Notes under the pieces: generated by a model
What the model was told of the DNA's origin: nothing
What the model saw: the letters and a program-made list of their open reading frames with translations, nothing else
Databases searched by the model: none
Shown: in pieces, positions 2,637-22,075 of the stretch
Layout: every line of letters starts with the position of its first letter
Numbering within the stretch: the first letter of the stretch is position 1
Assembly: GCA_964610875.1 (NCBI GenBank)
Contig: CAZSWP010000049.1
Span: 1 to 24,638 of the forward strand
Direction: 5' to 3'
Length of the DNA stretch: 24,638 bases
Source of the DNA: an uncultured archaeon
Lineage (GTDB): Archaea; Asgardarchaeota; Thorarchaeia; Thorarchaeales; Thorarchaeaceae
Made by a program: the position numbers and the translations under genes

Positions 2637-3407
2637 TTGCAAGTAGAGTTTGCCATTGAACTCAATGATATCATTGTATTTTTCATCGCAGTCATCTATG
2701 TGGTTTTAGTTCTTACAGTAGGAGATGTTGCTAGACGCAAACTCAATCTGGGTTCGGACTTCACAAGGAAGATTATTCATCTTTTTGCTGGTGCTGCGAT
2801 CTGGACTTTGCCTTACTATCCTCATCCATGGTTTGCCACTTTCGTTGCACTCACCTTTGTGATCATGCTTGGCCTGGCAAACACAGACAGGTTTGGTAGA
2901 TTTTTTGCAGCAATGGCGCGACCAGAGGATCTAGAATCAGGTAGTGTGAGAGGACCGTTTTGGTATGCTGTTTCTTTAACAATCCTTACTGCAATTTTCA
3001 CTTTCACAGGATATGAAGAGATTTACTTCATTGCAGCTGCATCTATTCACATCATGATGCTAGGTGATGGAATGTCAGCTCCCATTGGTATGAGATGGGG
3101 TGAGAACAATTGTAGAATAATCTATGGTTCAAAACGCAGTCTTCATGGTTGTCTCAGTCTATTTCTCTTTGGACTCCTTGGTGCCATGATAGCCTTTTGG
3201 TGGTTTGGTGTCATCAACTATGGTGCGTTTGTGATAGGAGGAGAGATTCAATGGATTACCATGCTGATTCTTGCATTAATTGGTGCACTTTCTGCCACCT
3301 TAATTGAACTCATAACTCCAAAAGGATTGGATAACATAACATTACCACTGATATCTTGTGTTGTTATGTTGATAGCAGGCATGATGTTGGGAGTAGTTGC
3401 ACTCTAA
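2637..3407 (+). CDS. CTP-dependent polyprenol (dolichol/phytol) kinase family membrane protein
   Basis: Multiple TM segments; motifs RKIIHL, GDGMSAPIG..WG, KRSLHG and GLDNITLP. Confidence 0.8.
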   Translation: MQVEFAIELNDIIVFFIAVIYVVLVLTVGDVARRKLNLGSDFTRKIIHLFAGAAIWTLPYYPHPWFATFVALTFVIMLGLANTDRFGRFFAAMARPEDLESGSVRGPFWYAVSLTILTAIFTFTGYEEIYFIAAASIHIMMLGDGMSAPIGMRWGENNCRIIYGSKRSLHGCLSLFLFGLLGAMIAFWWFGVINYGAFVIGGEIQWITMLILALIGALSATLIELITPKGLDNITLPLISCVVMLIAGMMLGVVAL

Positions 3408-3964
3408 CGGCTTGAATCAACAACCAATCTATAGTAGAATGTTCTACCTGCAGTCTGACTCTCTCTCTCAATACGGATTACTTGACCGATTTTAGCACCT
3501 AACACTTTGACTCCAGGATCTTCTCTACGGATTCTGGGGAGCTTGGTTTTGTCGATACCATAGTATTCCAGCACCATGTTGACCTCATCTTTAGGAGCAA
3601 TGACATGTTTGGGCACTAGGTCATGACCAAAAAGATCGAATGATGCGTAGCCACCTTCAACCAGCTCAACACGTGTAGCTCGAGCATGTTTCTTTGCTGC
3701 TGGCGTGAATCTTGAACCACCTACAACCATACCTTCTTGACACTCATTCTCCTCCATATCTCGAACTATGTCTCTAACTAGCGCTACACCTATGACTTTA
3801 GGTTCTTTGTATATCCAACAGCAGCTTTTGATATTCATATCTTCAGTTTTTTTTCTTGGAAACATGACCCATCTGTTTTCATATTCGAGAAGCTCATCTA
3901 CAGTATACGCTCTTAGACTTAGTAGCGAACGGGTTTTGATTATAATCTCAGGTAGTTCTATCAA
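3404..3964 (-). CDS. rpo5: DNA-directed RNA polymerase subunit Rpo5/RpoH with a eukaryote-like RPB5 N-terminal domain
   Basis: The C-terminal ~78 aa HDLVPKH...KLPRIRREDPGVKVLGAKIGQVIRIERESQTAGRTFYYRLVV are canonical Rpo5/RPB5. The N-terminal ~105 aa (EPKVIGV...MEENE..GMVV...FTPAAK) resemble the RPB5 jaw / Mrr-like fold. Confidence 0.93.
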   Translation of the reverse strand: MIELPEIIIKTRSLLSLRAYTVDELLEYENRWVMFPRKKTEDMNIKSCCWIYKEPKVIGVALVRDIVRDMEENECQEGMVVGGSRFTPAAKKHARATRVELVEGGYASFDLFGHDLVPKHVIAPKDEVNMVLEYYGIDKTKLPRIRREDPGVKVLGAKIGQVIRIERESQTAGRTFYYRLVVDSSR

Positions 3965-4029
3965 GTCAGATACACCAGCCAGACTAAACTCGATTGCGAT
4001 TCAGTGGACATATAAGCATTGTCAAGTGG

Positions 4030-4152
4030 TTAATCGTCTTCATAGAGACGCATGGGTTGACCACAACAAACTAGTGTTCCTGGACCAGATTTCTTTACGA
4101 CAACAATCTGTTGACAAATATCACAAACATAGGTCGCTCCTTCTTTCGCCAT
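4030..4152 (-). CDS. Desulforedoxin-like Fe(Cys)4 mini-protein (40 aa; absent from the ORF track)
   Basis: Hand translation from ATG 4152 to TAA 4030: MAKEGATYVCDICQQIVVVKKSGPGTLVCCGQPMRLYEDD. It has the exact C-x2-C-x15-CC desulforedoxin signature and the G.L.CCG.PM tail. Confidence 0.9.
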   Translation of the reverse strand: MAKEGATYVCDICQQIVVVKKSGPGTLVCCGQPMRLYEDD

Positions 4153-7629: not shown

Positions 7630-9153
7630 TCACCCTTGATAGAAACCCAGATACCCAGATGAAAGAGAGAATGATAGCCAAAATAACAACCCGCACAATA
7701 GGCTTATCGTGATTGGACGGTCGCCATTGACCATTTTGGTGTTAATATAACCAGCACCCATCGTGATTGTCACCAGAGTGATAAGTAATGGAACCACTGA
7801 AAGTAGAGAAATTGACCCAGGTGTGAAATTAGGGCCTTGAGATAAAAGTTCACCAATATACAAGAATGGCGACAAGGAGGCCAGAAGCCCCAACACGCCA
7901 GCACTTGTTATACTCAGGATATACACCTTTATCTTCTGGGCTGCAATTATACTTTCACGTTCTTTCACCACAGCAGAACGCTTTATCAACCTAGAAGCAA
8001 TCTTTGATATCCGATCACCAGCGTCTCTTGCTGAAATACTACACATCAAAGATACTATTCTGAATAATCGACCAACGCGTTCTCCTAAAGCTCTTGAAGA
8101 TGCATCCTCAATAAGAGGTTCAATAGCCTCATCACGAAGCTGCATTCCTTCTAGAACTGGGTCTATCAATCTCTGTATCTCTGGAGACGAATCATCACGT
8201 ACTTCAAAAAGAGCTACTTCTAGAGTATCGCCTAATCTCAATCGTTCTCCAAGGAGAATCAAAAAATTAAGAAATTCATCATACTCGTTCACTATCTCCT
8301 TCTGTGTAGAGAGAATATCTGATGATTTTTGAGGTCTATCAAAATATGCTGAGAATTTTGTTGTGAATCGCGATTTCATCAGAATGTTAATTGCTATGAA
8401 AAGAGGTGCAAGAAATATGATCAGTGGATTTGATGCTAATCCAGCCAAGGAGAAAGATAATGCGAACATTATGGGAACATAAGTAGTAACAGCTGCTACT
8501 ATTAGGATCCGAGACTCCAGTTCTAGATTCTTTTGTCTTAGAGCAAGATCGGCCTCAAAAGATTCACCTGCAAGAATTTCTAAGACATCAGTTTTTTGCT
8601 CTAAAGAAGAAAGAACACCAATGAAATACCTTCGCAAATCATCTGAAGGTTGATTATGTGCAAACTCCCTTAGAAGTTCTTCAGGAGACCTTCCCCTATC
8701 AATTTCAAGCATCATACTCTGAAATGTCTTGGAAAGATAAGGATGAGAAGAATTAGCAATCATCTCAAATGCATCAAATATTGTTCCCCCTGATTGAAAC
8801 GTGAGAAGGAATTGTTCGAAGATAATATCTGATTCCTCAGACAATTCAATCTTGTAGCTGTTCATAGTATTGATGGGATATGAAGCAACCACGTAATAGG
8901 TCAAGACGCCCACTATCAATGATAGAGGAGTGGCAACTAATATACTTGAGTTTAGGAAAAGAAGTAGAAATACAAAGAGGAGGGTCATCAAAATACCCAT
9001 AAGTCTGGCGGCTGCTAGCACACCCTCGGCACTGATTTTCATGAGGGGTTTGAGAAACTTCACTGCACGTTCCAGGTCTCTCCTCTCTCCTTCTTTGTAT
9101 CTATTCAGAAGGGGAATAAGTTGAGAAACCTTGCAGAGTCTTTCGTAAATCAA
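7630..9153 (-). CDS. Type II secretion/type IV pilus platform membrane protein (T2SSF; TadC/PilC/ArlJ-like) with two F domains
   Basis: FLLTFQSGGTIFDAFEMIA..HPYLSKTF..M..EIDRGRSPEELLREFA..QPSDDLRR and a second FL..LGERLRLGDTLEVAL repeat, each followed by TM hairpins. Confidence 0.8.
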   Translation of the reverse strand: MIYERLCKVSQLIPLLNRYKEGERRDLERAVKFLKPLMKISAEGVLAAARLMGILMTLLFVFLLLFLNSSILVATPLSLIVGVLTYYVVASYPINTMNSYKIELSEESDIIFEQFLLTFQSGGTIFDAFEMIANSSHPYLSKTFQSMMLEIDRGRSPEELLREFAHNQPSDDLRRYFIGVLSSLEQKTDVLEILAGESFEADLALRQKNLELESRILIVAAVTTYVPIMFALSFSLAGLASNPLIIFLAPLFIAINILMKSRFTTKFSAYFDRPQKSSDILSTQKEIVNEYDEFLNFLILLGERLRLGDTLEVALFEVRDDSSPEIQRLIDPVLEGMQLRDEAIEPLIEDASSRALGERVGRLFRIVSLMCSISARDAGDRISKIASRLIKRSAVVKERESIIAAQKIKVYILSITSAGVLGLLASLSPFLYIGELLSQGPNFTPGSISLLSVVPLLITLVTITMGAGYINTKMVNGDRPITISLLCGLLFWLSFSLSSGYLGFYQG

Positions 9154-9206: not shown

Positions 9207-10490
9207 TTATAGGAAATCCAGAATAGTTGTCTGTGATTGGAATTCTTTGTAGAGGTGACTCTGTTTCAAGTAATTCTCAACTGGGTTTCGTAAGTGCATT
9301 CCAATCTCGTTTATTGCTTCATCTAAGGAACTGAATTTCTTCCCACCTTGTTCCAAAGATCTCTTTGCTATCTCTCTGAATCGCCAAACACCAAGAGGCA
9401 CCCATCTCGTTGGGTCAATTTCCATGAATACAATAACTCCTGCTTGTCTTCTCATATTTGTAAGATGTTCAAGAACTGGAAGTCTGGTTGCATAATAGGC
9501 ACCAACCACATCCTTCGCATAATCTTTGCGTCCCTTGAACCATTCGTAATCATTTATCACAGGAGGATTTAGAGACCCTAACCAACATTCCAACGCTTCA
9601 AACTGCCAAGCTGAAGGTAGGAAAAGAATCTGCACCGTGTTGCCAAGAGCGTAATCAGTATGAACATGAAAATCATTTATCCAATCATACCTCAAAACCT
9701 GTTTATGTAGATCTTTTCCGATTATATCATCTACCGCAGTGATACTCCATTTTGTCGGTACAAGTCGACGTCGTTTCTTCTCACCTAATAGGCCAACAGA
9801 AAGCAATCTAGTGGTATGTTCTAATCTTATACCATCATCAAAAAGGTCCATAATTCCTGTAGCTGCTTTTAGATCTGTATCTGATGTTACTTTGTCAACA
9901 CGACGAGGAACTTTCGGATTGTCCTCAAGTCTAAATTGATCCAATGGAGCAGAAGGACCAATTGGTAAAGTTCTTCCTGTAAAGACGCTTGTAAAGCGAG
10001 GTCTCTTAATCAATGTGGCTTCTGAAATGATTGGCGATTCGGAAAGGGACATAGTCTGAGTTTCAGCAAGTAGTCTTGAGGGGTTCACTGCCGCGTCTAC
10101 TGGAAGAAGTTTCTTTGTTCTAACTAGACTGAAGCGTAATGAGAGAATCTCATCAAGACTTTTTTCTAACCATAAATCAGGACGTTCCATGAGAGAGGTC
10201 TCTGAACCAACTCTAGGAGGTACCAATGGACCTGCCAATACTTTTGGATATCCAGATTCGCCAACGAATACTGCGGGTGGAGGTGATCCTGCAAGATTCA
10301 GACCAGTAACAGAACTCTCAATATTGCTAAGGGCTTTTGCTCTCATTAAAAGCGGACAAGGGTGTATTCCACAAAGACGCCTATGACCCATACAACTGGA
10401 GCACATCCTATCATTGTAGGATTGTCTAGTGCTTGAATTTGAATCCAGTTTTGTTTGAGACATATTGCAATCTCCGAGATCAACACTCAT
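9207..10490 (-). CDS. nreA: Nre-family archaeal DNA repair protein (NreA) with C-terminal PIP box
   Basis: N-terminal CSSCMG.RRLCG..PCP, then PPAVFVGESGYPKV..GPL, RRLVPTKWSITAVDD, GAYYATRL and WVPLGVW.FRE. The C-terminal QTTILDFL is a PCNA-interacting motif. Confidence 0.92.
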   Translation of the reverse strand: MSVDLGDCNMSQTKLDSNSSTRQSYNDRMCSSCMGHRRLCGIHPCPLLMRAKALSNIESSVTGLNLAGSPPPAVFVGESGYPKVLAGPLVPPRVGSETSLMERPDLWLEKSLDEILSLRFSLVRTKKLLPVDAAVNPSRLLAETQTMSLSESPIISEATLIKRPRFTSVFTGRTLPIGPSAPLDQFRLEDNPKVPRRVDKVTSDTDLKAATGIMDLFDDGIRLEHTTRLLSVGLLGEKKRRRLVPTKWSITAVDDIIGKDLHKQVLRYDWINDFHVHTDYALGNTVQILFLPSAWQFEALECWLGSLNPPVINDYEWFKGRKDYAKDVVGAYYATRLPVLEHLTNMRRQAGVIVFMEIDPTRWVPLGVWRFREIAKRSLEQGGKKFSSLDEAINEIGMHLRNPVENYLKQSHLYKEFQSQTTILDFL

Positions 10491-19192: not shown

Positions 19193-19453
19193 ATGCAATT
19201 TGTATGCCGTACATGTGGAAAGCAATCCTCAGATATTGACATGATTCTAGATGGTGAATGTTCATGTGGTGGAAGCCACTTCAAACTTATATCTGAAGAA
19301 CCAGTTATACTGCCAATATCTACAACCGCAAAAGAACAGCTAAGGATGGATCTTCACAATTGGATAGATTTGAATCTTGATTCCTTAGATACAGATTCAG
19401 TAGGTGACATAAGAGTCGCATTTGAATTATGTAATGATGAGTTACGACGCTGA
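19193..19453 (+). CDS. Small Zn-ribbon protein (N-terminus resembles DUF2072/OapC-type ribbons)
   Basis: MQFVCRTCG...ILDGECSCGGSHFKLI. RBS AAGGTG upstream. Confidence 0.7.
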   Translation: MQFVCRTCGKQSSDIDMILDGECSCGGSHFKLISEEPVILPISTTAKEQLRMDLHNWIDLNLDSLDTDSVGDIRVAFELCNDELRR

Positions 19454-22075
19454 TTCATTCTCGGAGTCCAAATCGTCCAAAGGACGCTCTATCTTAGCTA
19501 TTTGACTTTCTATCTCCACGTTGATATCAGTTCTACCACCAACATCAGCAATGCGTTGTACGGCTTTCAAATTATGAATCAGGGAGTCCAACCAAGAATA
19601 GATGTCACCGGGATACGCCCAGAGTTCATAATCATCCTGAAGTTTCTTTGCTAACCCTGATGGATTAAGACCATTCTTTCTTTCCCTTACAAGCCATTTA
19701 CCTAACTCGATTTTTGGGTGTTCGCAGTCCGGGAAAAAGCTACAGCCGCAATTGAAGAAGTCCGAAGTCCAGCCTGAGAATAACTCGAAGACCCATTTGG
19801 GAAGTCTTGCAGCTCCTGAACGCGGATTCTTCATACTGGTCATCTCAGCAAATATCCCTGAAAACAATCTTGTAGGCATATGTGTTCTAAAAGCTGAATT
19901 GACTTCACTCTGGAGTTTAGATGTGAGATACACATTTTGAAAAGGTTCTAACTTGATAGCAATTTCAAGAACATCCATTTTATCCAGTAATTTCCTAACA
20001 TTATATCCATCAGTTGGTGTCAGGAAGGATAATGATGTTGCACGTCCTAGTGGTGTAGTGTGAGCGCCACCTTCCTTTACTCGAATCATATGTGTTTTGA
20101 CCAGATGCTTTAAAGCATCTGATGGAGGGACTGATCCAGATAGCATTTTCAAGTAGACTCTTGCAATCTTCTTGAGGTCGACTAATCCTGTAGAGCAGAT
20201 TGTAGCAAGTATCTGTTCAGCAGAAACTTCCTTATCAGCAAAGGGTTCAACATCTTCTATTTCACCTTTGAGAAGTTCAGCAGCAATTTGATCTTCCACC
20301 TTGTCCTGTCCAGAATGATATTTTCGTTCAGGTTCAACAAGCATGTAGACTTTCCCTCTATCATGTTTGCCAAGTCGTCCAGCTCTCCCGAGCATCTGTT
20401 CAAATTCAGCAGTAGATATCCAGTCTGCACCCATTGCGAGACTCTCGAAGATGACTTGTGAAGCAGGTAGGTCTACACCAGCACCCAGAGCTGCTGTAGT
20501 AACCACGCAAGGATATCGCTGCTTATTGTATGAATATTCAATACTCCGTCGCTTTGAATAAGATAAACCCCCATGATAAACAGCACTACGTACGCGATGC
20601 TCTCGAAGCCAGTCGCTTAGACCATGTGCTCTTCTACGTGAGAATGTAAATACAATTGATTGTCCTTTGTTTCCAGATGAGCTCTCGTGTCGAAACTCTT
20701 CTTTTACTAGACGTTGAATTATATGACGCTTATGTTCCTCATTCCGTGCAAAGACTAAGTGACGCTCTAATGGAATAGGACGACCAACATATTCAACGAG
20801 GTTAAGTCCTAATTCTTTTGCTAGAGTTTCAGGAGAACCAACTGTGGCAGATAGTGCTAAGACCTGTGCCTTTGGATAATGAAAACGCATTCTCGCAAGA
20901 AGACCATCTAGTTCTGGTCCACGTTCAGGGTCTGCAAGATTTTGAATCTCGTCAATGATGATTGTCCCAACATTTCCAATCTGTTTGGTTTCGCCTGAAC
21001 GAAAAATCAAATCCAATGCTTCATAGGTAGCGCATATTATGTCAGCTTTAGACACATCCGTATCTACAATCGGTTTTCCCTCTTTGCCTACATCAAGTCG
21101 GGACATACCAACCTTAATTCCAACACGAAGGCCTAATTTCTTGTAACGTGTTCTAAAAGATTCATATTTCTCATTTGTCAATGCAACAAGGGGTGAGAGG
21201 TAAATCATCTTCCTACCTTTCAATGCGGATGGGATACCTGCCATCTCACCAATCAAAGTCTTGCCTGATGAAGTAGAAGATACAATCATTAAACTTTCAT
21301 TCTTTAGAAGACCGGCATCAATGACAAGCTCTTGAACTGGTAACAATTCTGAGAATCCTTCGTCGGAGAGTAATTTCCTAAATTCATCTGGGAGGTTCAA
21401 TTCTGAAACTCTCTTACCAGTCCCTGTGAAACCTGTAGTTAGAGTATCCACCAATGTCAATTCTGGGTCTTTTGTTGGGTCAAAATTTGGATTGAGTAAG
21501 TCAAGAAGACGAGGTATTGATTTTACTTTCGCAAGTTGTCGTTCTATATGCTGCGTCATGACTTTTGATAGGTGGACATTCATACTTTTCAGGTCGGTCT
21601 TGAGATCCGCTTTTGCACATGTAAGGCAAAGAACTTGCGTCTGTGATACTTTGATTGCATTTCTTCTTGTCAATACTGTGAATCTATCATCTCGAACACA
21701 ATGCTCACAAACTGGCACTACTCTTGCTTTTGGAGCCTGAAGACGATCCAAGAAATCTTTTAGATTCTTGAGAAAACCTGGTTTGAATTTTCTGGGAATT
21801 AAAATCACTTTTGCTTTACGTAAGAATTCATGAAACTCCTTGGGTTGATAATAGACAGGTTTGTTATACTTTACAAACCAAGAACGACGAATCTCCATAA
21901 GACCGTTCGACCGGTATCCTAGTTCAATTACTCCAGATAATTGCATTCGTTGTCTATCATGTAGAACATCAGAAATCACAGAAACATAGATGGTCAATTC
22001 TTGCCTTCCTGCACGTAATACAATAGAATAGGGTTTGGTCATCCGTTTTTGTATATCTGCATCTGCTACTTCCAA
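19442..22075 (-). CDS. Archaea-specific Ski2-like SF2 helicase (ASH-Ski2, COG1202/DUF5814)
   Basis: LLPVQ, SSTSSGKTLIGE, PLVALTNEKY, DEIQ, LSAT, TTAALGAGVDLPASQVIFESLAMG and QMLGRAGR. N-terminal CEHC/CLTC and C-terminal CGC..FPDCEH metal sites, YPGDI. RBS GAGGT upstream. Confidence 0.9.
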   Translation of the reverse strand: MEVADADIQKRMTKPYSIVLRAGRQELTIYVSVISDVLHDRQRMQLSGVIELGYRSNGLMEIRRSWFVKYNKPVYYQPKEFHEFLRKAKVILIPRKFKPGFLKNLKDFLDRLQAPKARVVPVCEHCVRDDRFTVLTRRNAIKVSQTQVLCLTCAKADLKTDLKSMNVHLSKVMTQHIERQLAKVKSIPRLLDLLNPNFDPTKDPELTLVDTLTTGFTGTGKRVSELNLPDEFRKLLSDEGFSELLPVQELVIDAGLLKNESLMIVSSTSSGKTLIGEMAGIPSALKGRKMIYLSPLVALTNEKYESFRTRYKKLGLRVGIKVGMSRLDVGKEGKPIVDTDVSKADIICATYEALDLIFRSGETKQIGNVGTIIIDEIQNLADPERGPELDGLLARMRFHYPKAQVLALSATVGSPETLAKELGLNLVEYVGRPIPLERHLVFARNEEHKRHIIQRLVKEEFRHESSSGNKGQSIVFTFSRRRAHGLSDWLREHRVRSAVYHGGLSYSKRRSIEYSYNKQRYPCVVTTAALGAGVDLPASQVIFESLAMGADWISTAEFEQMLGRAGRLGKHDRGKVYMLVEPERKYHSGQDKVEDQIAAELLKGEIEDVEPFADKEVSAEQILATICSTGLVDLKKIARVYLKMLSGSVPPSDALKHLVKTHMIRVKEGGAHTTPLGRATSLSFLTPTDGYNVRKLLDKMDVLEIAIKLEPFQNVYLTSKLQSEVNSAFRTHMPTRLFSGIFAEMTSMKNPRSGAARLPKWVFELFSGWTSDFFNCGCSFFPDCEHPKIELGKWLVRERKNGLNPSGLAKKLQDDYELWAYPGDIYSWLDSLIHNLKAVQRIADVGGRTDINVEIESQIAKIERPLDDLDSENESAS

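What the first reader, a model, noticed from the sequence alone, without database searches (positions are those of the whole stretch)
3404..3964. Full-length, eukaryote-like RPB5 (jaw plus assembly domain) encoded outside the rpo operon
Seen: a 186-aa ORF with a canonical Rpo5 C-terminus and about 105 extra N-terminal residues; its 3' neighbour is a convergent kinase gene, not rpo2/rpo1. Established: typical archaeal Rpo5 is about 75-85 aa, lacks the eukaryotic jaw domain and heads the rpo5-rpo2-rpo1 operon. By-eye comparison with human RPB5 as I recall it: KTRSLLSLRAYTV resembles the KT..QL..DRGY.V segment, and EPKVIGVALVRDIVRDMEENECQEGMVVGGSRFTPAAK resembles EPKVGIKT....RMQEENI..A.IVV..GMTPSAK. 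Inference: this is a eukaryotic-signature Rpo5 with a jaw domain derived from a restriction-endonuclease/Mrr fold. It could be the only copy or an alternative subunit that specialises the RNAP. Similar fusions may already be reported for Asgard archaea; I cannot check.
Basis: partly seen in the sequence, partly recalled or inferred. Interest (0 to 1): 0.75.

Follow-up and report, generated by a model that had tools for sequence, protein, structure and literature searches.

The report
Archaeal Rpo5 with RPB5-type jaw
This Thorarchaeota-type Asgard archaeon's only gene for the small RNA polymerase subunit Rpo5 carries an extra front half, a dead restriction-nuclease domain homologous to the "jaw" of eukaryotic RPB5, which the papers I could read call eukaryote-only; I also find it in most Asgard lineages and some Bathyarchaeia.

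Summary
Window 3404-3964 (minus strand) encodes a 186-aa protein: residues 1-104 form a catalytically dead Mrr-type PD-(D/E)XK domain, and residues 108-183 are a canonical Rpo5/RpoH assembly domain.

A profile of the N-domain alone hits the eukaryotic RPB5 jaw in the PDB (E 2.5e-7). The whole predicted model superposes on human RPB5 (Z 17.2, 177 residues).

It is the only Rpb5_C gene found in the 95%-complete genome. No rpo5 precedes the rpo2-rpo1 operon, which lies on another contig.

- **Long form:** Thor, Heimdallarchaeaceae, Hodarchaeales, Jord, Frey, Borr and others, plus about 23 Bathyarchaeia species.
- **Short form:** the Lokiarchaeia and Odinarchaeum genomes examined.
- **Gene position:** all 61 short-form loci examined sit directly upstream of rpo2. 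None of the 46 long-form loci checked has rpo2 within 1.5-4 kb.

A single origin shared with eukaryotic RPB5 fits the trees but is not proven (AU p 0.4 and 0.74). Placement on downstream DNA is inferred, not shown.

Papers I could read state that archaea lack this domain, and I found none describing it. The scan had already found the same thing in other Thorarchaeota genomes.

The parts
3404..3964 (-). rpo5 (rpoH) gene, long two-domain form, 186 aa plus stop codon; TTG start
3653..3964 (-). N-terminal jaw-type domain (residues 1-104): dead Mrr-type PD-(D/E)XK fold, helix-strands-helix-strand-helix-strand; the catalytic D, (Q/E) and K columns hold V33, W50 and Y52
   Evidence: Mrr_cat 28.3 bits; N-only model pLDDT 93.8; PDB profile hit to RPB5 at E 2.5e-7; VIA Z 9.1-10.8 to RPB5-N and nucleases; catalytic columns
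3689..3706 (-). TPAAKK (residues 87-92), aligned with the TPSA(K) motif of eukaryotic RPB5 that contacts downstream DNA; T87 and A90 are kept in at least 90% of 30 diverse archaeal long forms
   Evidence: alignments; the role of the TPSA motif is from PMC6690254
3644..3652 (-). short hinge (residues 105-107, within the low-confidence stretch at about 101-120)
   Evidence: pLDDT 61-62 for residues 101-120
3416..3643 (-). C-terminal assembly domain (residues 108-183), canonical Rpo5/RpoH/Rpb5_C; R167 and R179 are invariant in 30 of 30 and align with the yeast Rpb5 arginines R200 and R212 that salt-bridge to Rpb1
   Evidence: Z 13.8, rmsd 1.5 A over 77 residues to Thermococcus Rpo5; role of R200/R212 from PMC1802627
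3973..3976 (-). GGTG, a likely Shine-Dalgarno element 8 nt before the TTG start (inferred)
   Evidence: read from the sequence
4010..4015 (-). TTATAT, a possible TATA box between the upstream microprotein gene and rpo5 (inferred, untested)
   Evidence: read from the sequence

Best explanation
This gene encodes the sole Rpo5 (RpoH) subunit of the RNA polymerase of a Thorarchaeota-type Asgard archaeon, in a two-domain form built like eukaryotic RPB5. The C-terminal 76 residues are the usual assembly domain that docks on the largest subunit. The N-terminal 104 residues are a domesticated Mrr-type restriction-endonuclease domain that has lost its catalytic Asp, (Glu/Gln) and Lys. That domain is homologous to the RPB5 'jaw'. 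Shown here: the domain architecture, the homology of each half, loss of the catalytic residues, single copy, position outside the rpo operon, and wide conservation. Inferred: in the assembled enzyme the N-domain sits at the lower jaw beside the downstream DNA channel, as in Pol I/II/III. There it would act as a guard rail and weak DNA contact through the conserved TP(A/S)A-KK patch, filling the void that Rpo13 occupies in Sulfolobales. Also inferred: the fusion arose in archaea and eukaryotes inherited RPB5 from an Asgard ancestor that already had the jaw.
For: - **Identity of the halves:** Rpb5_C 88 bits, RpoH equivalog 92.8 bits, Mrr_cat 28.3 bits.
- **Alignment to RPB5:** eukaryotic RPB5 chains align from query residue 35-49 through 180.
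- **N-domain alone:** human RPB5 E 2.5e-7, plant NRPB5A 1.3e-5, yeast 0.016, and no nuclease chain at E below 10 in the PDB. hhalign of archaeal N versus animal RPB5 N gives 98.2%, E 5e-14, 109 columns. RPB5 N versus Mrr scores weaker (E 1e-9), so the archaeal domain is the intermediate.
- **Structure:** full model pLDDT 86. Foldseek's top 34 hits are RPB5 and RPB5-like chains over about 200 columns, with TMq 0.62-0.74 (0.71-0.74 for the best). VIA gives Z 17.2, rmsd 3.3 A, 177 of 186 residues, 28% identity to human RPB5 7vba_E.
- **Dead nuclease:** V33, W50 and Y52 sit in the D, Q/E and K columns. No (D/E/Q)xK in register in any of 30 long forms.
- **Functional constraint:** TPAAKK aligns to TPSAK. 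R167 and R179 are invariant.
- **Sole copy:** one PF01191 match in a 95%-complete genome. The rpo2-rpo1N-rpo1C operon on contig C47 has no rpo5 upstream. The near-complete relative G313 (98%) also has only the long form.
- **Conservation:** the N-domain is found in 222 of 400 Asgard genomes. Named holders include Heimdallarchaeaceae, Hodarchaeales, Jordarchaeales, Freyarchaeum and Borrarchaeum, plus about 23 Bathyarchaeia.
- **Trees:** eukaryotes lie on the side of the moderately supported split (81/91) that holds most Asgard long forms. One clade of all long forms is not rejected (p-AU 0.4). All Rpo5/RPB5 N-domains together against Mrr nucleases is the better tree.
Against: - Pfam's own RNA_pol_Rpb5_N model (PF03871) matches 0 of 30 archaeal long forms at E up to 1.
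- The archaeal N-domain scores higher against Mrr nucleases (hhalign E 2e-24) than against RPB5 N.
- By fold alone it ties with EndoMS and AF1548 (Z 10.8 and 10.4, against 9.8 for RPB5 N).
- The free quick N-domain tree put eukaryotes next to Mrr nucleases (SH-aLRT 92).
- The C-domain tree is a polytomy and needs at least 4 changes of long/short state. Bathyarchaeial long forms sit with TACK short forms, so more than one fusion or a transfer is possible.
- The eukaryote sample was animals plus one unknown only.
- The predicted inter-domain orientation rests on a hinge with pLDDT about 62, and AlphaFold may have learned it from RPB5.
- No complex model, expression data or biochemistry is available.
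Confidence: 0.75

Rival explanations
1. Convergent fusions. An Mrr-type domain was fused to Rpo5 independently in archaea (perhaps separately in Asgard and in Bathyarchaeia) and in the eukaryotic stem. The archaeal N-domain would then be a look-alike of the RPB5 jaw, not its ancestor.
For: The archaeal N-domain is closer to Mrr nucleases than to RPB5 N. The free N tree placed eukaryotes beside Mrr. The C-domain tree needs at least 4 state changes and puts Bathyarchaeial long forms with Bathyarchaeial and TACK short forms. PF03871 does not match. A Bathyarchaeota family of dead Mrr proteins nests among the archaeal jaws, which shows the domain is mobile.
Against: Both have the same domain order, the same partner, the same hinge position and the same loss of the (D/E/Q)xK. 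RPB5 N is closer to the archaeal N than to Mrr (E 5e-14 against 1e-9). The constrained single-group N tree is better than the free one. A single long-form clade is not rejected on C-domain columns. Eukaryotes fall among Asgard long forms rather than short forms.
Confidence: 0.15
2. The N-domain is real and homologous to the jaw, but its main job is not DNA guidance. It would be a docking platform for other proteins (initiation or elongation factors, chromatin proteins), as is also proposed for eukaryotic RPB5.
For: The domain carries no net positive charge (17 K+R against 17 D+E in the window). The first helix with the invariant R18 is conserved, and the equivalent alpha-1 helix of yeast Rpb5 is the part critical in vivo, while the DNA-facing prolines are dispensable (PMC1802627). 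Some lineages carry 2-3 copies of the domain or acidic tails, which suits a binding platform.
Against: The most conserved stretch is the one aligned with the TPSA DNA-contact motif, followed by basic residues. Cross-linking and structures place RPB5 N on downstream DNA (PMC1802627, PMC3479171, PMC6690254).
Confidence: 0.07
3. It is an accessory or alternative Rpo5 paralogue, and the housekeeping short rpo5 was missed because the genome is incomplete.
For: The genome is a 124-contig assembly, 95% complete. Sister genera carry two tandem long copies, so paralogy does occur.
Against: The rpo operon contig is intact upstream of rpo2 and holds no rpo5. No second PF01191 match at E up to 1. 70 of 85 genomes of the family show only long forms, and none shows a short one. 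Across archaea no genome examined had both forms.
Confidence: 0.02
4. The N-domain is an active nuclease or defence module that merely rides on the polymerase subunit.
For: Mrr_cat is matched above its cut-off. Several non-Thor lineages keep the first catalytic Asp.
Against: All three catalytic positions are replaced in the window (V33, W50, Y52). No long form keeps the (D/E/Q)xK. 28 of 30 also match the 'inactive restriction endonuclease' family NA-iREase1.
Confidence: 0.01

Closest known systems
Eukaryotic RPB5 / RPABC1 / POLR2E (Pfam PF03871 + PF01191; e.g. PDB 7vba_E, 8uhd_E, 1dzf), shared by Pol I, II and III
   Same: Two domains in the same order: a PD-(D/E)XK-fold jaw followed by the assembly domain. 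The whole chain superposes (Z 17.2, 177 residues, 28% identity). The N-domains are homologous by sequence profile. The TP(S/A)A motif and both Rpb1-binding arginines are kept. The nuclease site is dead.
   Different: The archaeal jaw is about 104 aa against about 135. It lacks the roughly 25-residue insertion after helix 1. It fails Pfam PF03871 and still matches Mrr_cat. It serves a single polymerase.
Classic archaeal Rpo5 / RpoH (about 75-90 aa; PDB 9bct_H, 8cro_H, 7ok0_H, 2waq_H)
   Same: The C-terminal domain is the same (47-50% identity to Thermococcales Rpo5; Z 13.8, rmsd 1.5 A). The role as an Rpo1-binding subunit is presumably the same.
   Different: The classic form has no N-domain and heads the rpoH-rpoB-rpoA operon: 56 of 56 short-form loci, plus 5 Asgard ones. 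The window's gene has the jaw and lies elsewhere.
Mrr-type restriction endonucleases (Pfam PF04471) and inactive relatives (PF22722 NA-iREase1; AF1548, PDB 1y88)
   Same: Fold and sequence family of the N-domain (Mrr_cat 28.3 bits; hhalign E 2e-24; Z 10.4 to 1y88). The shared motifs are G(Y/F) in helix 1, VGV..VR, and (S/T)xFTxxA...IELI.
   Different: Catalytic D...(Q/E)xK is lost. The domain is fused to a polymerase subunit.
Rpo13 of Sulfolobales
   Same: By inference it occupies the same void between Rpo5 and Rpo1N beside downstream DNA (PMC3479171). It is a functional analogue.
   Different: It is an unrelated small helical protein encoded separately. No homology.
RPB5 homologues of nucleocytoplasmic large DNA viruses (e.g. 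ASFV, PDB 8q3b_E)
   Same: Two-domain RPB5-like chain (Z 14.0-14.3 over about 180 residues).
   Different: Only 16% identity. Viral lineage.

Membership tests
Rpo5/RpoH/Rpb5 assembly domain (Pfam PF01191; NCBIfam NF007129) | Profile match above the curated cut-offs | tested here: met
   88 bits against 23.5; 92.8 bits against 83
Rpo5/RpoH/Rpb5 assembly domain (Pfam PF01191; NCBIfam NF007129) | Two arginines that salt-bridge to the largest subunit (yeast R200, R212) | tested here: met
   R167 and R179 are invariant in 30 of 30 long forms and aligned with the eukaryotic arginines. Their role is from PMC1802627.
Rpo5/RpoH/Rpb5 assembly domain (Pfam PF01191; NCBIfam NF007129) | Stoichiometric subunit of the purified RNA polymerase | not testable with these tools
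   Needs proteomics or a structure of the enzyme
Eukaryote-type two-domain RPB5 | PD-(D/E)XK-fold jaw domain N-terminal to the assembly domain, both superposable as one chain | tested here: met
   Z 17.2, rmsd 3.3 A, 177 residues to 7vba_E; Foldseek TMq 0.71-0.74 for the best RPB5 chains
Eukaryote-type two-domain RPB5 | Sequence homology of the N-domain by itself to RPB5 N | tested here: met
   Profile of the N-domain alone: E 2.5e-7 to human RPB5; hhalign 98.2%, E 5e-14
Eukaryote-type two-domain RPB5 | Match to Pfam RNA_pol_Rpb5_N (PF03871) at its gathering score | tested here: not met
   0 of 30 long forms match at E up to 1. The model covers only the first 89 positions, which is the most divergent part.
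Eukaryote-type two-domain RPB5 | TPSA motif that contacts downstream DNA | tested here: met
   TPAA(KK) at residues 87-90 is aligned with TPSA. T87 and A90 are at least 90% conserved. The DNA contact itself was not tested.
Eukaryote-type two-domain RPB5 | Insertion of about 25 residues between helix 1 and the first strand | tested here: not met
   Absent from all archaeal forms (alignments)
Eukaryote-type two-domain RPB5 | N-domain lies on the lower jaw beside downstream DNA in the enzyme | not testable with these tools
Mrr-type restriction endonuclease (PF04471) | Profile match above the cut-off | tested here: met
   28.3 bits against 21; 29 of 30 relatives
Mrr-type restriction endonuclease (PF04471) | Catalytic D ... 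(D/E/Q)xK | tested here: not met
   V33, W50 and Y52 are in these columns
Archaeal rpoH-rpoB-rpoA operon | rpo5 immediately upstream of rpo2 | tested here: not met
   rpo2 is on contig C47 with no rpo5 before it. None of the 46 long-form loci checked (22 Asgard with 1.5 kb flanks; 23 Bathyarchaeia and 1 Jordarchaeum with 4 kb flanks) has rpo2 within the flank.

The most novel reading that the evidence does not exclude
The RPB5 jaw, taught as one of the few polymerase features that are purely eukaryotic, was invented in archaea by capture of a dead Mrr restriction nuclease and relocation of rpo5 out of the rpo operon. It was already present in the Asgard ancestor of eukaryotes (Heimdall and Hod lineages have it). 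It is shared, by common descent or by transfer, with part of the Bathyarchaeia. The archaeal proteins would then be the missing link between Mrr nucleases and RPB5 N.
Probability: 0.6. Interest if true: 0.8.

Novelty: new variant of a known kind. Interest (0 to 1): 0.7.

Why it matters
Reviews and structural papers state that the N-terminal module of Rpb5 exists only in eukaryotes and that no archaeon has it (PMC1802627, PMC3479171, PMC3424549, PMC6690254).

If the archaeal two-domain Rpo5 is the ancestor of RPB5, one more 'eukaryotic' polymerase feature moves back into archaea. Its origin from a defence nuclease becomes traceable through a less diverged intermediate.

The function of the jaw could then be studied in a simpler single-polymerase system.

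It also matters for annotation. Public records in several lineages call only the last 84-93 residues. The cultured Asgard archaeon examined here (Lokiarchaeum ossiferum) has the short form, which may be why the long form has gone unremarked.

Tried and rejected
The genomic context of metagenome representatives (P0181, P0146, P0229) could not be read. I used the search for related loci on genome contigs instead.
- **Fold search with the N-domain alone cannot separate RPB5 N from nucleases.** Foldseek E-values are all near 1e-3. VIA gives Z 10.8 EndoMS, 10.4 AF1548 and 9.8 RPB5, which are tied.
- **Pfam PF03871:** no match.
- **The 'shorter' homologue search returned only 7 proteins,** all Thor-type and probably truncated gene calls. 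It gave no outgroup.
- **The eukaryote search returned only animals among the listed hits**, so eukaryotic diversity in the trees and in hhalign is poor.
- **The first C-domain tree had mis-extracted rows with very long branches.** It was rebuilt from a full-length alignment.
- **The free quick N-domain tree placed eukaryotes beside Mrr nucleases**. The constrained search found a better tree, so that placement was a search artefact or long-branch effect.
- **Compact RPB5-like proteins P0229 and P0195 have no match in IMG/VR**. Their origin stays unknown.
- **The desulforedoxin gene upstream is linked to rpo5 only within the Thor family**. I rejected it as a general partner.
- **Three family genomes (G319, G321, G327; 86-91% complete) showed no Rpo5 at all**. 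I read this as assembly gaps, not as absence.
Full report
**The object**

Window 3404-3964 on the minus strand is an open frame of 186 codons that starts with TTG. A GGTG lies 8 nt upstream of the TTG. A TTATAT lies about 46-51 nt upstream, in the 65-nt spacer after the preceding gene; its role is inferred only. More than 100 homologues of 184-190 aa begin with the same M(V/I)ELP...KTR..L.LR.Y, so the long reading is the real gene and not an over-extended ORF.

**What the two halves are**

Residues 110-181 match Pfam RNA_pol_Rpb5_C (88 bits; cut-off 23.5) and the NCBIfam equivalog for RNA polymerase subunit H (92.8 bits; cut-off 83). Residues 56-104 match Mrr_cat (28.3 bits; cut-off 21), and weakly the 'inactive restriction endonuclease' family NA-iREase1.

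Against PDB sequences, short archaeal Rpo5 chains align to residues 105-183. Eukaryotic RPB5 chains align from residue 35-49 through 180, well into the jaw domain.

**Testing the N-domain on its own**

I collected 30 diverse long forms from genome-search loci (alignment A1) and cut out the N-domain (alignment A2).

- **Profile against the PDB.** A profile of A2, which holds no residue of the C-domain, finds human RPB5 at E 2.5e-7, Drosophila at 2e-6, Arabidopsis NRPB5A at 1.3e-5 and yeast at 0.016. No nuclease chain appears at E below 10.
- **Profile-profile comparison.**

| Comparison | Result |
|---|---|
| Archaeal N vs animal RPB5 N | 98.2% probability, E 5e-14, 109 columns |
| Archaeal N vs Mrr nucleases | E 2e-24 |
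| RPB5 N vs Mrr nucleases | E 1e-9 |

  The archaeal domain is therefore an intermediate: still clearly Mrr-like, and the nearest thing to RPB5 N.
- **Pfam.** The RNA_pol_Rpb5_N model matches none of the 30. It covers only the first 89 positions, which is the most diverged part.

**Structure**

- **Full-length model (pLDDT 86).** It has RPB5 chains as its best matches over about 200 columns, with TMq 0.71-0.74. With VIA-align, human RPB5 in Pol I (7vba_E) gives Z 17.2, rmsd 3.3 A, 177 of 186 residues and 28% identity. Short archaeal Rpo5 gives Z 13.8 over 77 residues, and nucleases give Z 11 or less over about 100.
- **N-domain alone (pLDDT 93.8).** It is a PD-(D/E)XK fold that ties between EndoMS (Z 10.8), AF1548 (10.4) and RPB5 N (9.1-9.8).

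Fold alone does not discriminate. The sequence profiles and the shared architecture do. One caveat applies: the hinge has pLDDT about 62, and the relative orientation may be learned from RPB5.

**A dead nuclease under constraint**

Aligned with Mrr nucleases that carry D...(Q/E)xK, the window has V33, W50 and Y52 in these columns. None of the 30 long forms keeps the (D/E/Q)xK. Roughly half of the non-Thor forms keep the first Asp (xIDIIA).

The best-conserved N-domain positions are:
- R18 in helix 1,
- G59 in VGV,
- T87 and A90 in FTPAAKK,
- E100.

TPAAKK aligns with the RPB5 'TPSA' element, which contacts downstream DNA in human Pol II (PMC6690254). In the C-domain, R167 and R179 are invariant. 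They align with yeast R200 and R212, which clasp Rpb1 (PMC1802627).

**Copy number and position**

The genome (3.75 Mb, 124 contigs, 95% complete) has a single Rpb5_C match. rpo2, rpo1N and rpo1C lie on contig C47, followed by what look like L30e, NusA, S12 and S7 genes (assigned from ORF sizes and order only). The 1 kb upstream of rpo2 holds no Rpo5. The gene's neighbours here are:
- a 40-aa desulforedoxin-type ORF upstream on the same strand,
- a convergent membrane protein of unknown family downstream,
- an EamA transporter.

**Distribution**

Among 400 Asgard genomes, 370 have an Rpo5 match and 222 have the N-domain. The whole family of the window has the long form, and four genera have tandem pairs. 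By exact look-up of the proteins:

- **Long form:** Heimdallarchaeaceae (221 aa), another Heimdallarchaeota lineage, Hodarchaeales (189 aa), Jordarchaeales, Freyarchaeum deiterrae, Borrarchaeum, and a lineage labelled Odinarchaeota.
- **Short form (79-87 aa):** Odinarchaeum yellowstonii, Lokiarchaeum ossiferum, Harpocratesius repetitus, and the large 'Lokiarchaeota' family. Baldrarchaeota loci are also short (88-aa open frames).

Other Bathyarchaeia have the short form.

**A rule of position**

All 56 short-form loci have rpo2 directly downstream. These span Thermoproteota, Nitrososphaeria, Archaeoglobi, Hadarchaeota, Thermoplasmatota, Nanoarchaeota, Baldr and Odin. The 5 Asgard short-form loci show the same.

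None of the 24 long-form loci has rpo2 within 4 kb. None of the 22 Asgard long-form loci has it within 1.5 kb. These are related genomes, so this is an association, not a statistic. It does suggest that fusion and departure from the operon went together.

**Trees**

- **C-domain columns only** (careful IQ-TREE, 111 rows, 77 columns). Animal RPB5 plus three compact metagenome proteins form a clade (98/84). A moderately supported split (81/91) puts nearly all short forms, the Bathyarchaeial long forms and Jordarchaeia on one side. Eukaryotes and most Asgard long forms (Thor, Hod, Heimdall, Frey, Borr) lie on the other. Long/short needs at least 4 changes. Forcing all long forms into one clade costs 5.3 lnL (p-AU 0.4, not rejected).
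- **N-domain columns.** The free quick tree placed eukaryotes beside Mrr nucleases. The search constrained to keep all Rpo5/RPB5 N-domains (plus a Bathyarchaeota dead-Mrr family) together found a tree 16 lnL better (p-AU 0.74).

The data are compatible with one origin and do not prove it. Eukaryote sampling was limited to animals.

**Literature**

- Zaros et al. 2007 call the N-terminal module 'only found in eukaryotes' (PMC1802627).
- Wojtas et al. [quoted passage not shown]
- Steczkiewicz et al. 2012 list Rpb5 N as a PD-(D/E)XK group restricted to Eukaryota (PMC3424549).
- The 2018 Rpb5 review repeats that RpoH lacks it (PMC6690254).
- A 2026 survey of archaeal polymerase subunits modelled Thor and Hel Rpo5 but does not mention the domain (PMC13257274).
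- Eme et al. 2023 do not list it among informational ESPs.

Nine full-text searches found no description. Subscription papers and supplements were not searchable, so prior mention cannot be excluded.

**Earlier notes of this scan**

Earlier notes report the same feature in other Thorarchaeota genomes. My tests agree with them.

**Verdict**

This is a real, conserved, single-copy Rpo5 with an RPB5-type jaw derived from a dead Mrr nuclease.

- **Shown:** architecture, homology of both halves, loss of catalysis, copy number, position and distribution.
- **Inferred:** placement on downstream DNA, and direct ancestry of eukaryotic RPB5.

Noticed in passing
window 4030-4152 (-): A 40-aa desulforedoxin-type ORF (C-x2-C-x15-CC; Pfam Desulfoferrod_N E 3.9e-13, TIGR00319 42 bits) lies 65 nt upstream of rpo5 on the same strand. 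The same pair is found in 23 of 30 loci of the Thor family, but in none of the other Asgard long-form loci; the only such ORF in the Bathyarchaeial loci is one distant opposite-strand ORF in L079.
   Followed up: partly
L061:1456-2880 (-) (genome G053, family f10); proteins P0147, P0159, P0178, P0190: Rpo5 proteins of 290-480 aa with two or three tandem dead-Mrr (jaw-like) domains and lysine-rich linkers before a normal C-domain. All 11 matching genomes of family f10 and the 3 of f9 show 2-3 N-domain matches each.
   Followed up: partly
protein P0154 (561 aa; MHA1712704.1): A long-form Rpo5 whose C-domain is split (residues 116-154 and 517-559) by an insert of about 360 residues. The insert contains a stretch matching the Cpn60/TCP-1 chaperonin family (profile positions 243-360).
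   Followed up: no
L063-L085 (Bathyarchaeia genomes, e.g. LUCE01000009.1, CP070765.1): About 23 Bathyarchaeia species encode a contiguous two-domain Rpo5 away from rpo2. Other Bathyarchaeia (L087-L091) have the short form in the operon. L083, labelled Thermoproteota, groups with Jordarchaeia (100/99) and may be mislabelled.
   Followed up: partly
proteins P0188, P0166, P0173, P0210, P0216, P0217, P0245, P0269, P0271: A family annotated 'restriction endonuclease' in Bathyarchaeota: a dead Mrr domain (keeps the Asp, lacks QxK) followed by a Cys-rich part with a conserved ...RLxSDNAxFHF... motif. Its Mrr domain nests among the archaeal Rpo5 jaws in the N-domain tree.
   Followed up: partly
public records WXG42409.1 (Freyarchaeum deiterrae), MFQ6074875.1 (Bathyarchaeia), P0478-P0481 (Thor MAGs): NCBI gene calls give only the last 84-93 residues of what is a 180-200-codon open frame with a GTG or TTG start. 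The jaw domain is therefore missing from the deposited proteins.
   Followed up: partly
proteins P0229, P0195, P0232 (metagenome contigs of 1-5 kb): Compact (172-189 aa) RPB5-like proteins without the eukaryotic insertion. They group with animal RPB5 in both trees (97* and 98/84*). P0229 matches both PF03871 and Mrr_cat. Their origin is unknown, and neither P0229 nor P0195 (the two searched) was found in IMG/VR.
   Followed up: partly
genomes G335-G336, G337-G364, G367-G381, G391-G395: Four genera of the window's family carry two adjacent, diverged (about 60% identical) long rpo5 genes. The window's genome has one.
   Followed up: no
window 9207-10490 (-), 19442-22075 (-), 7630-9153 (-): Ordinary archaeal neighbours: an Nre-family protein (Nre_N + Nre_C), a DEAD-box helicase with DUF5814, and a T2SSF-type membrane protein. 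None relates to the polymerase.
   Followed up: no
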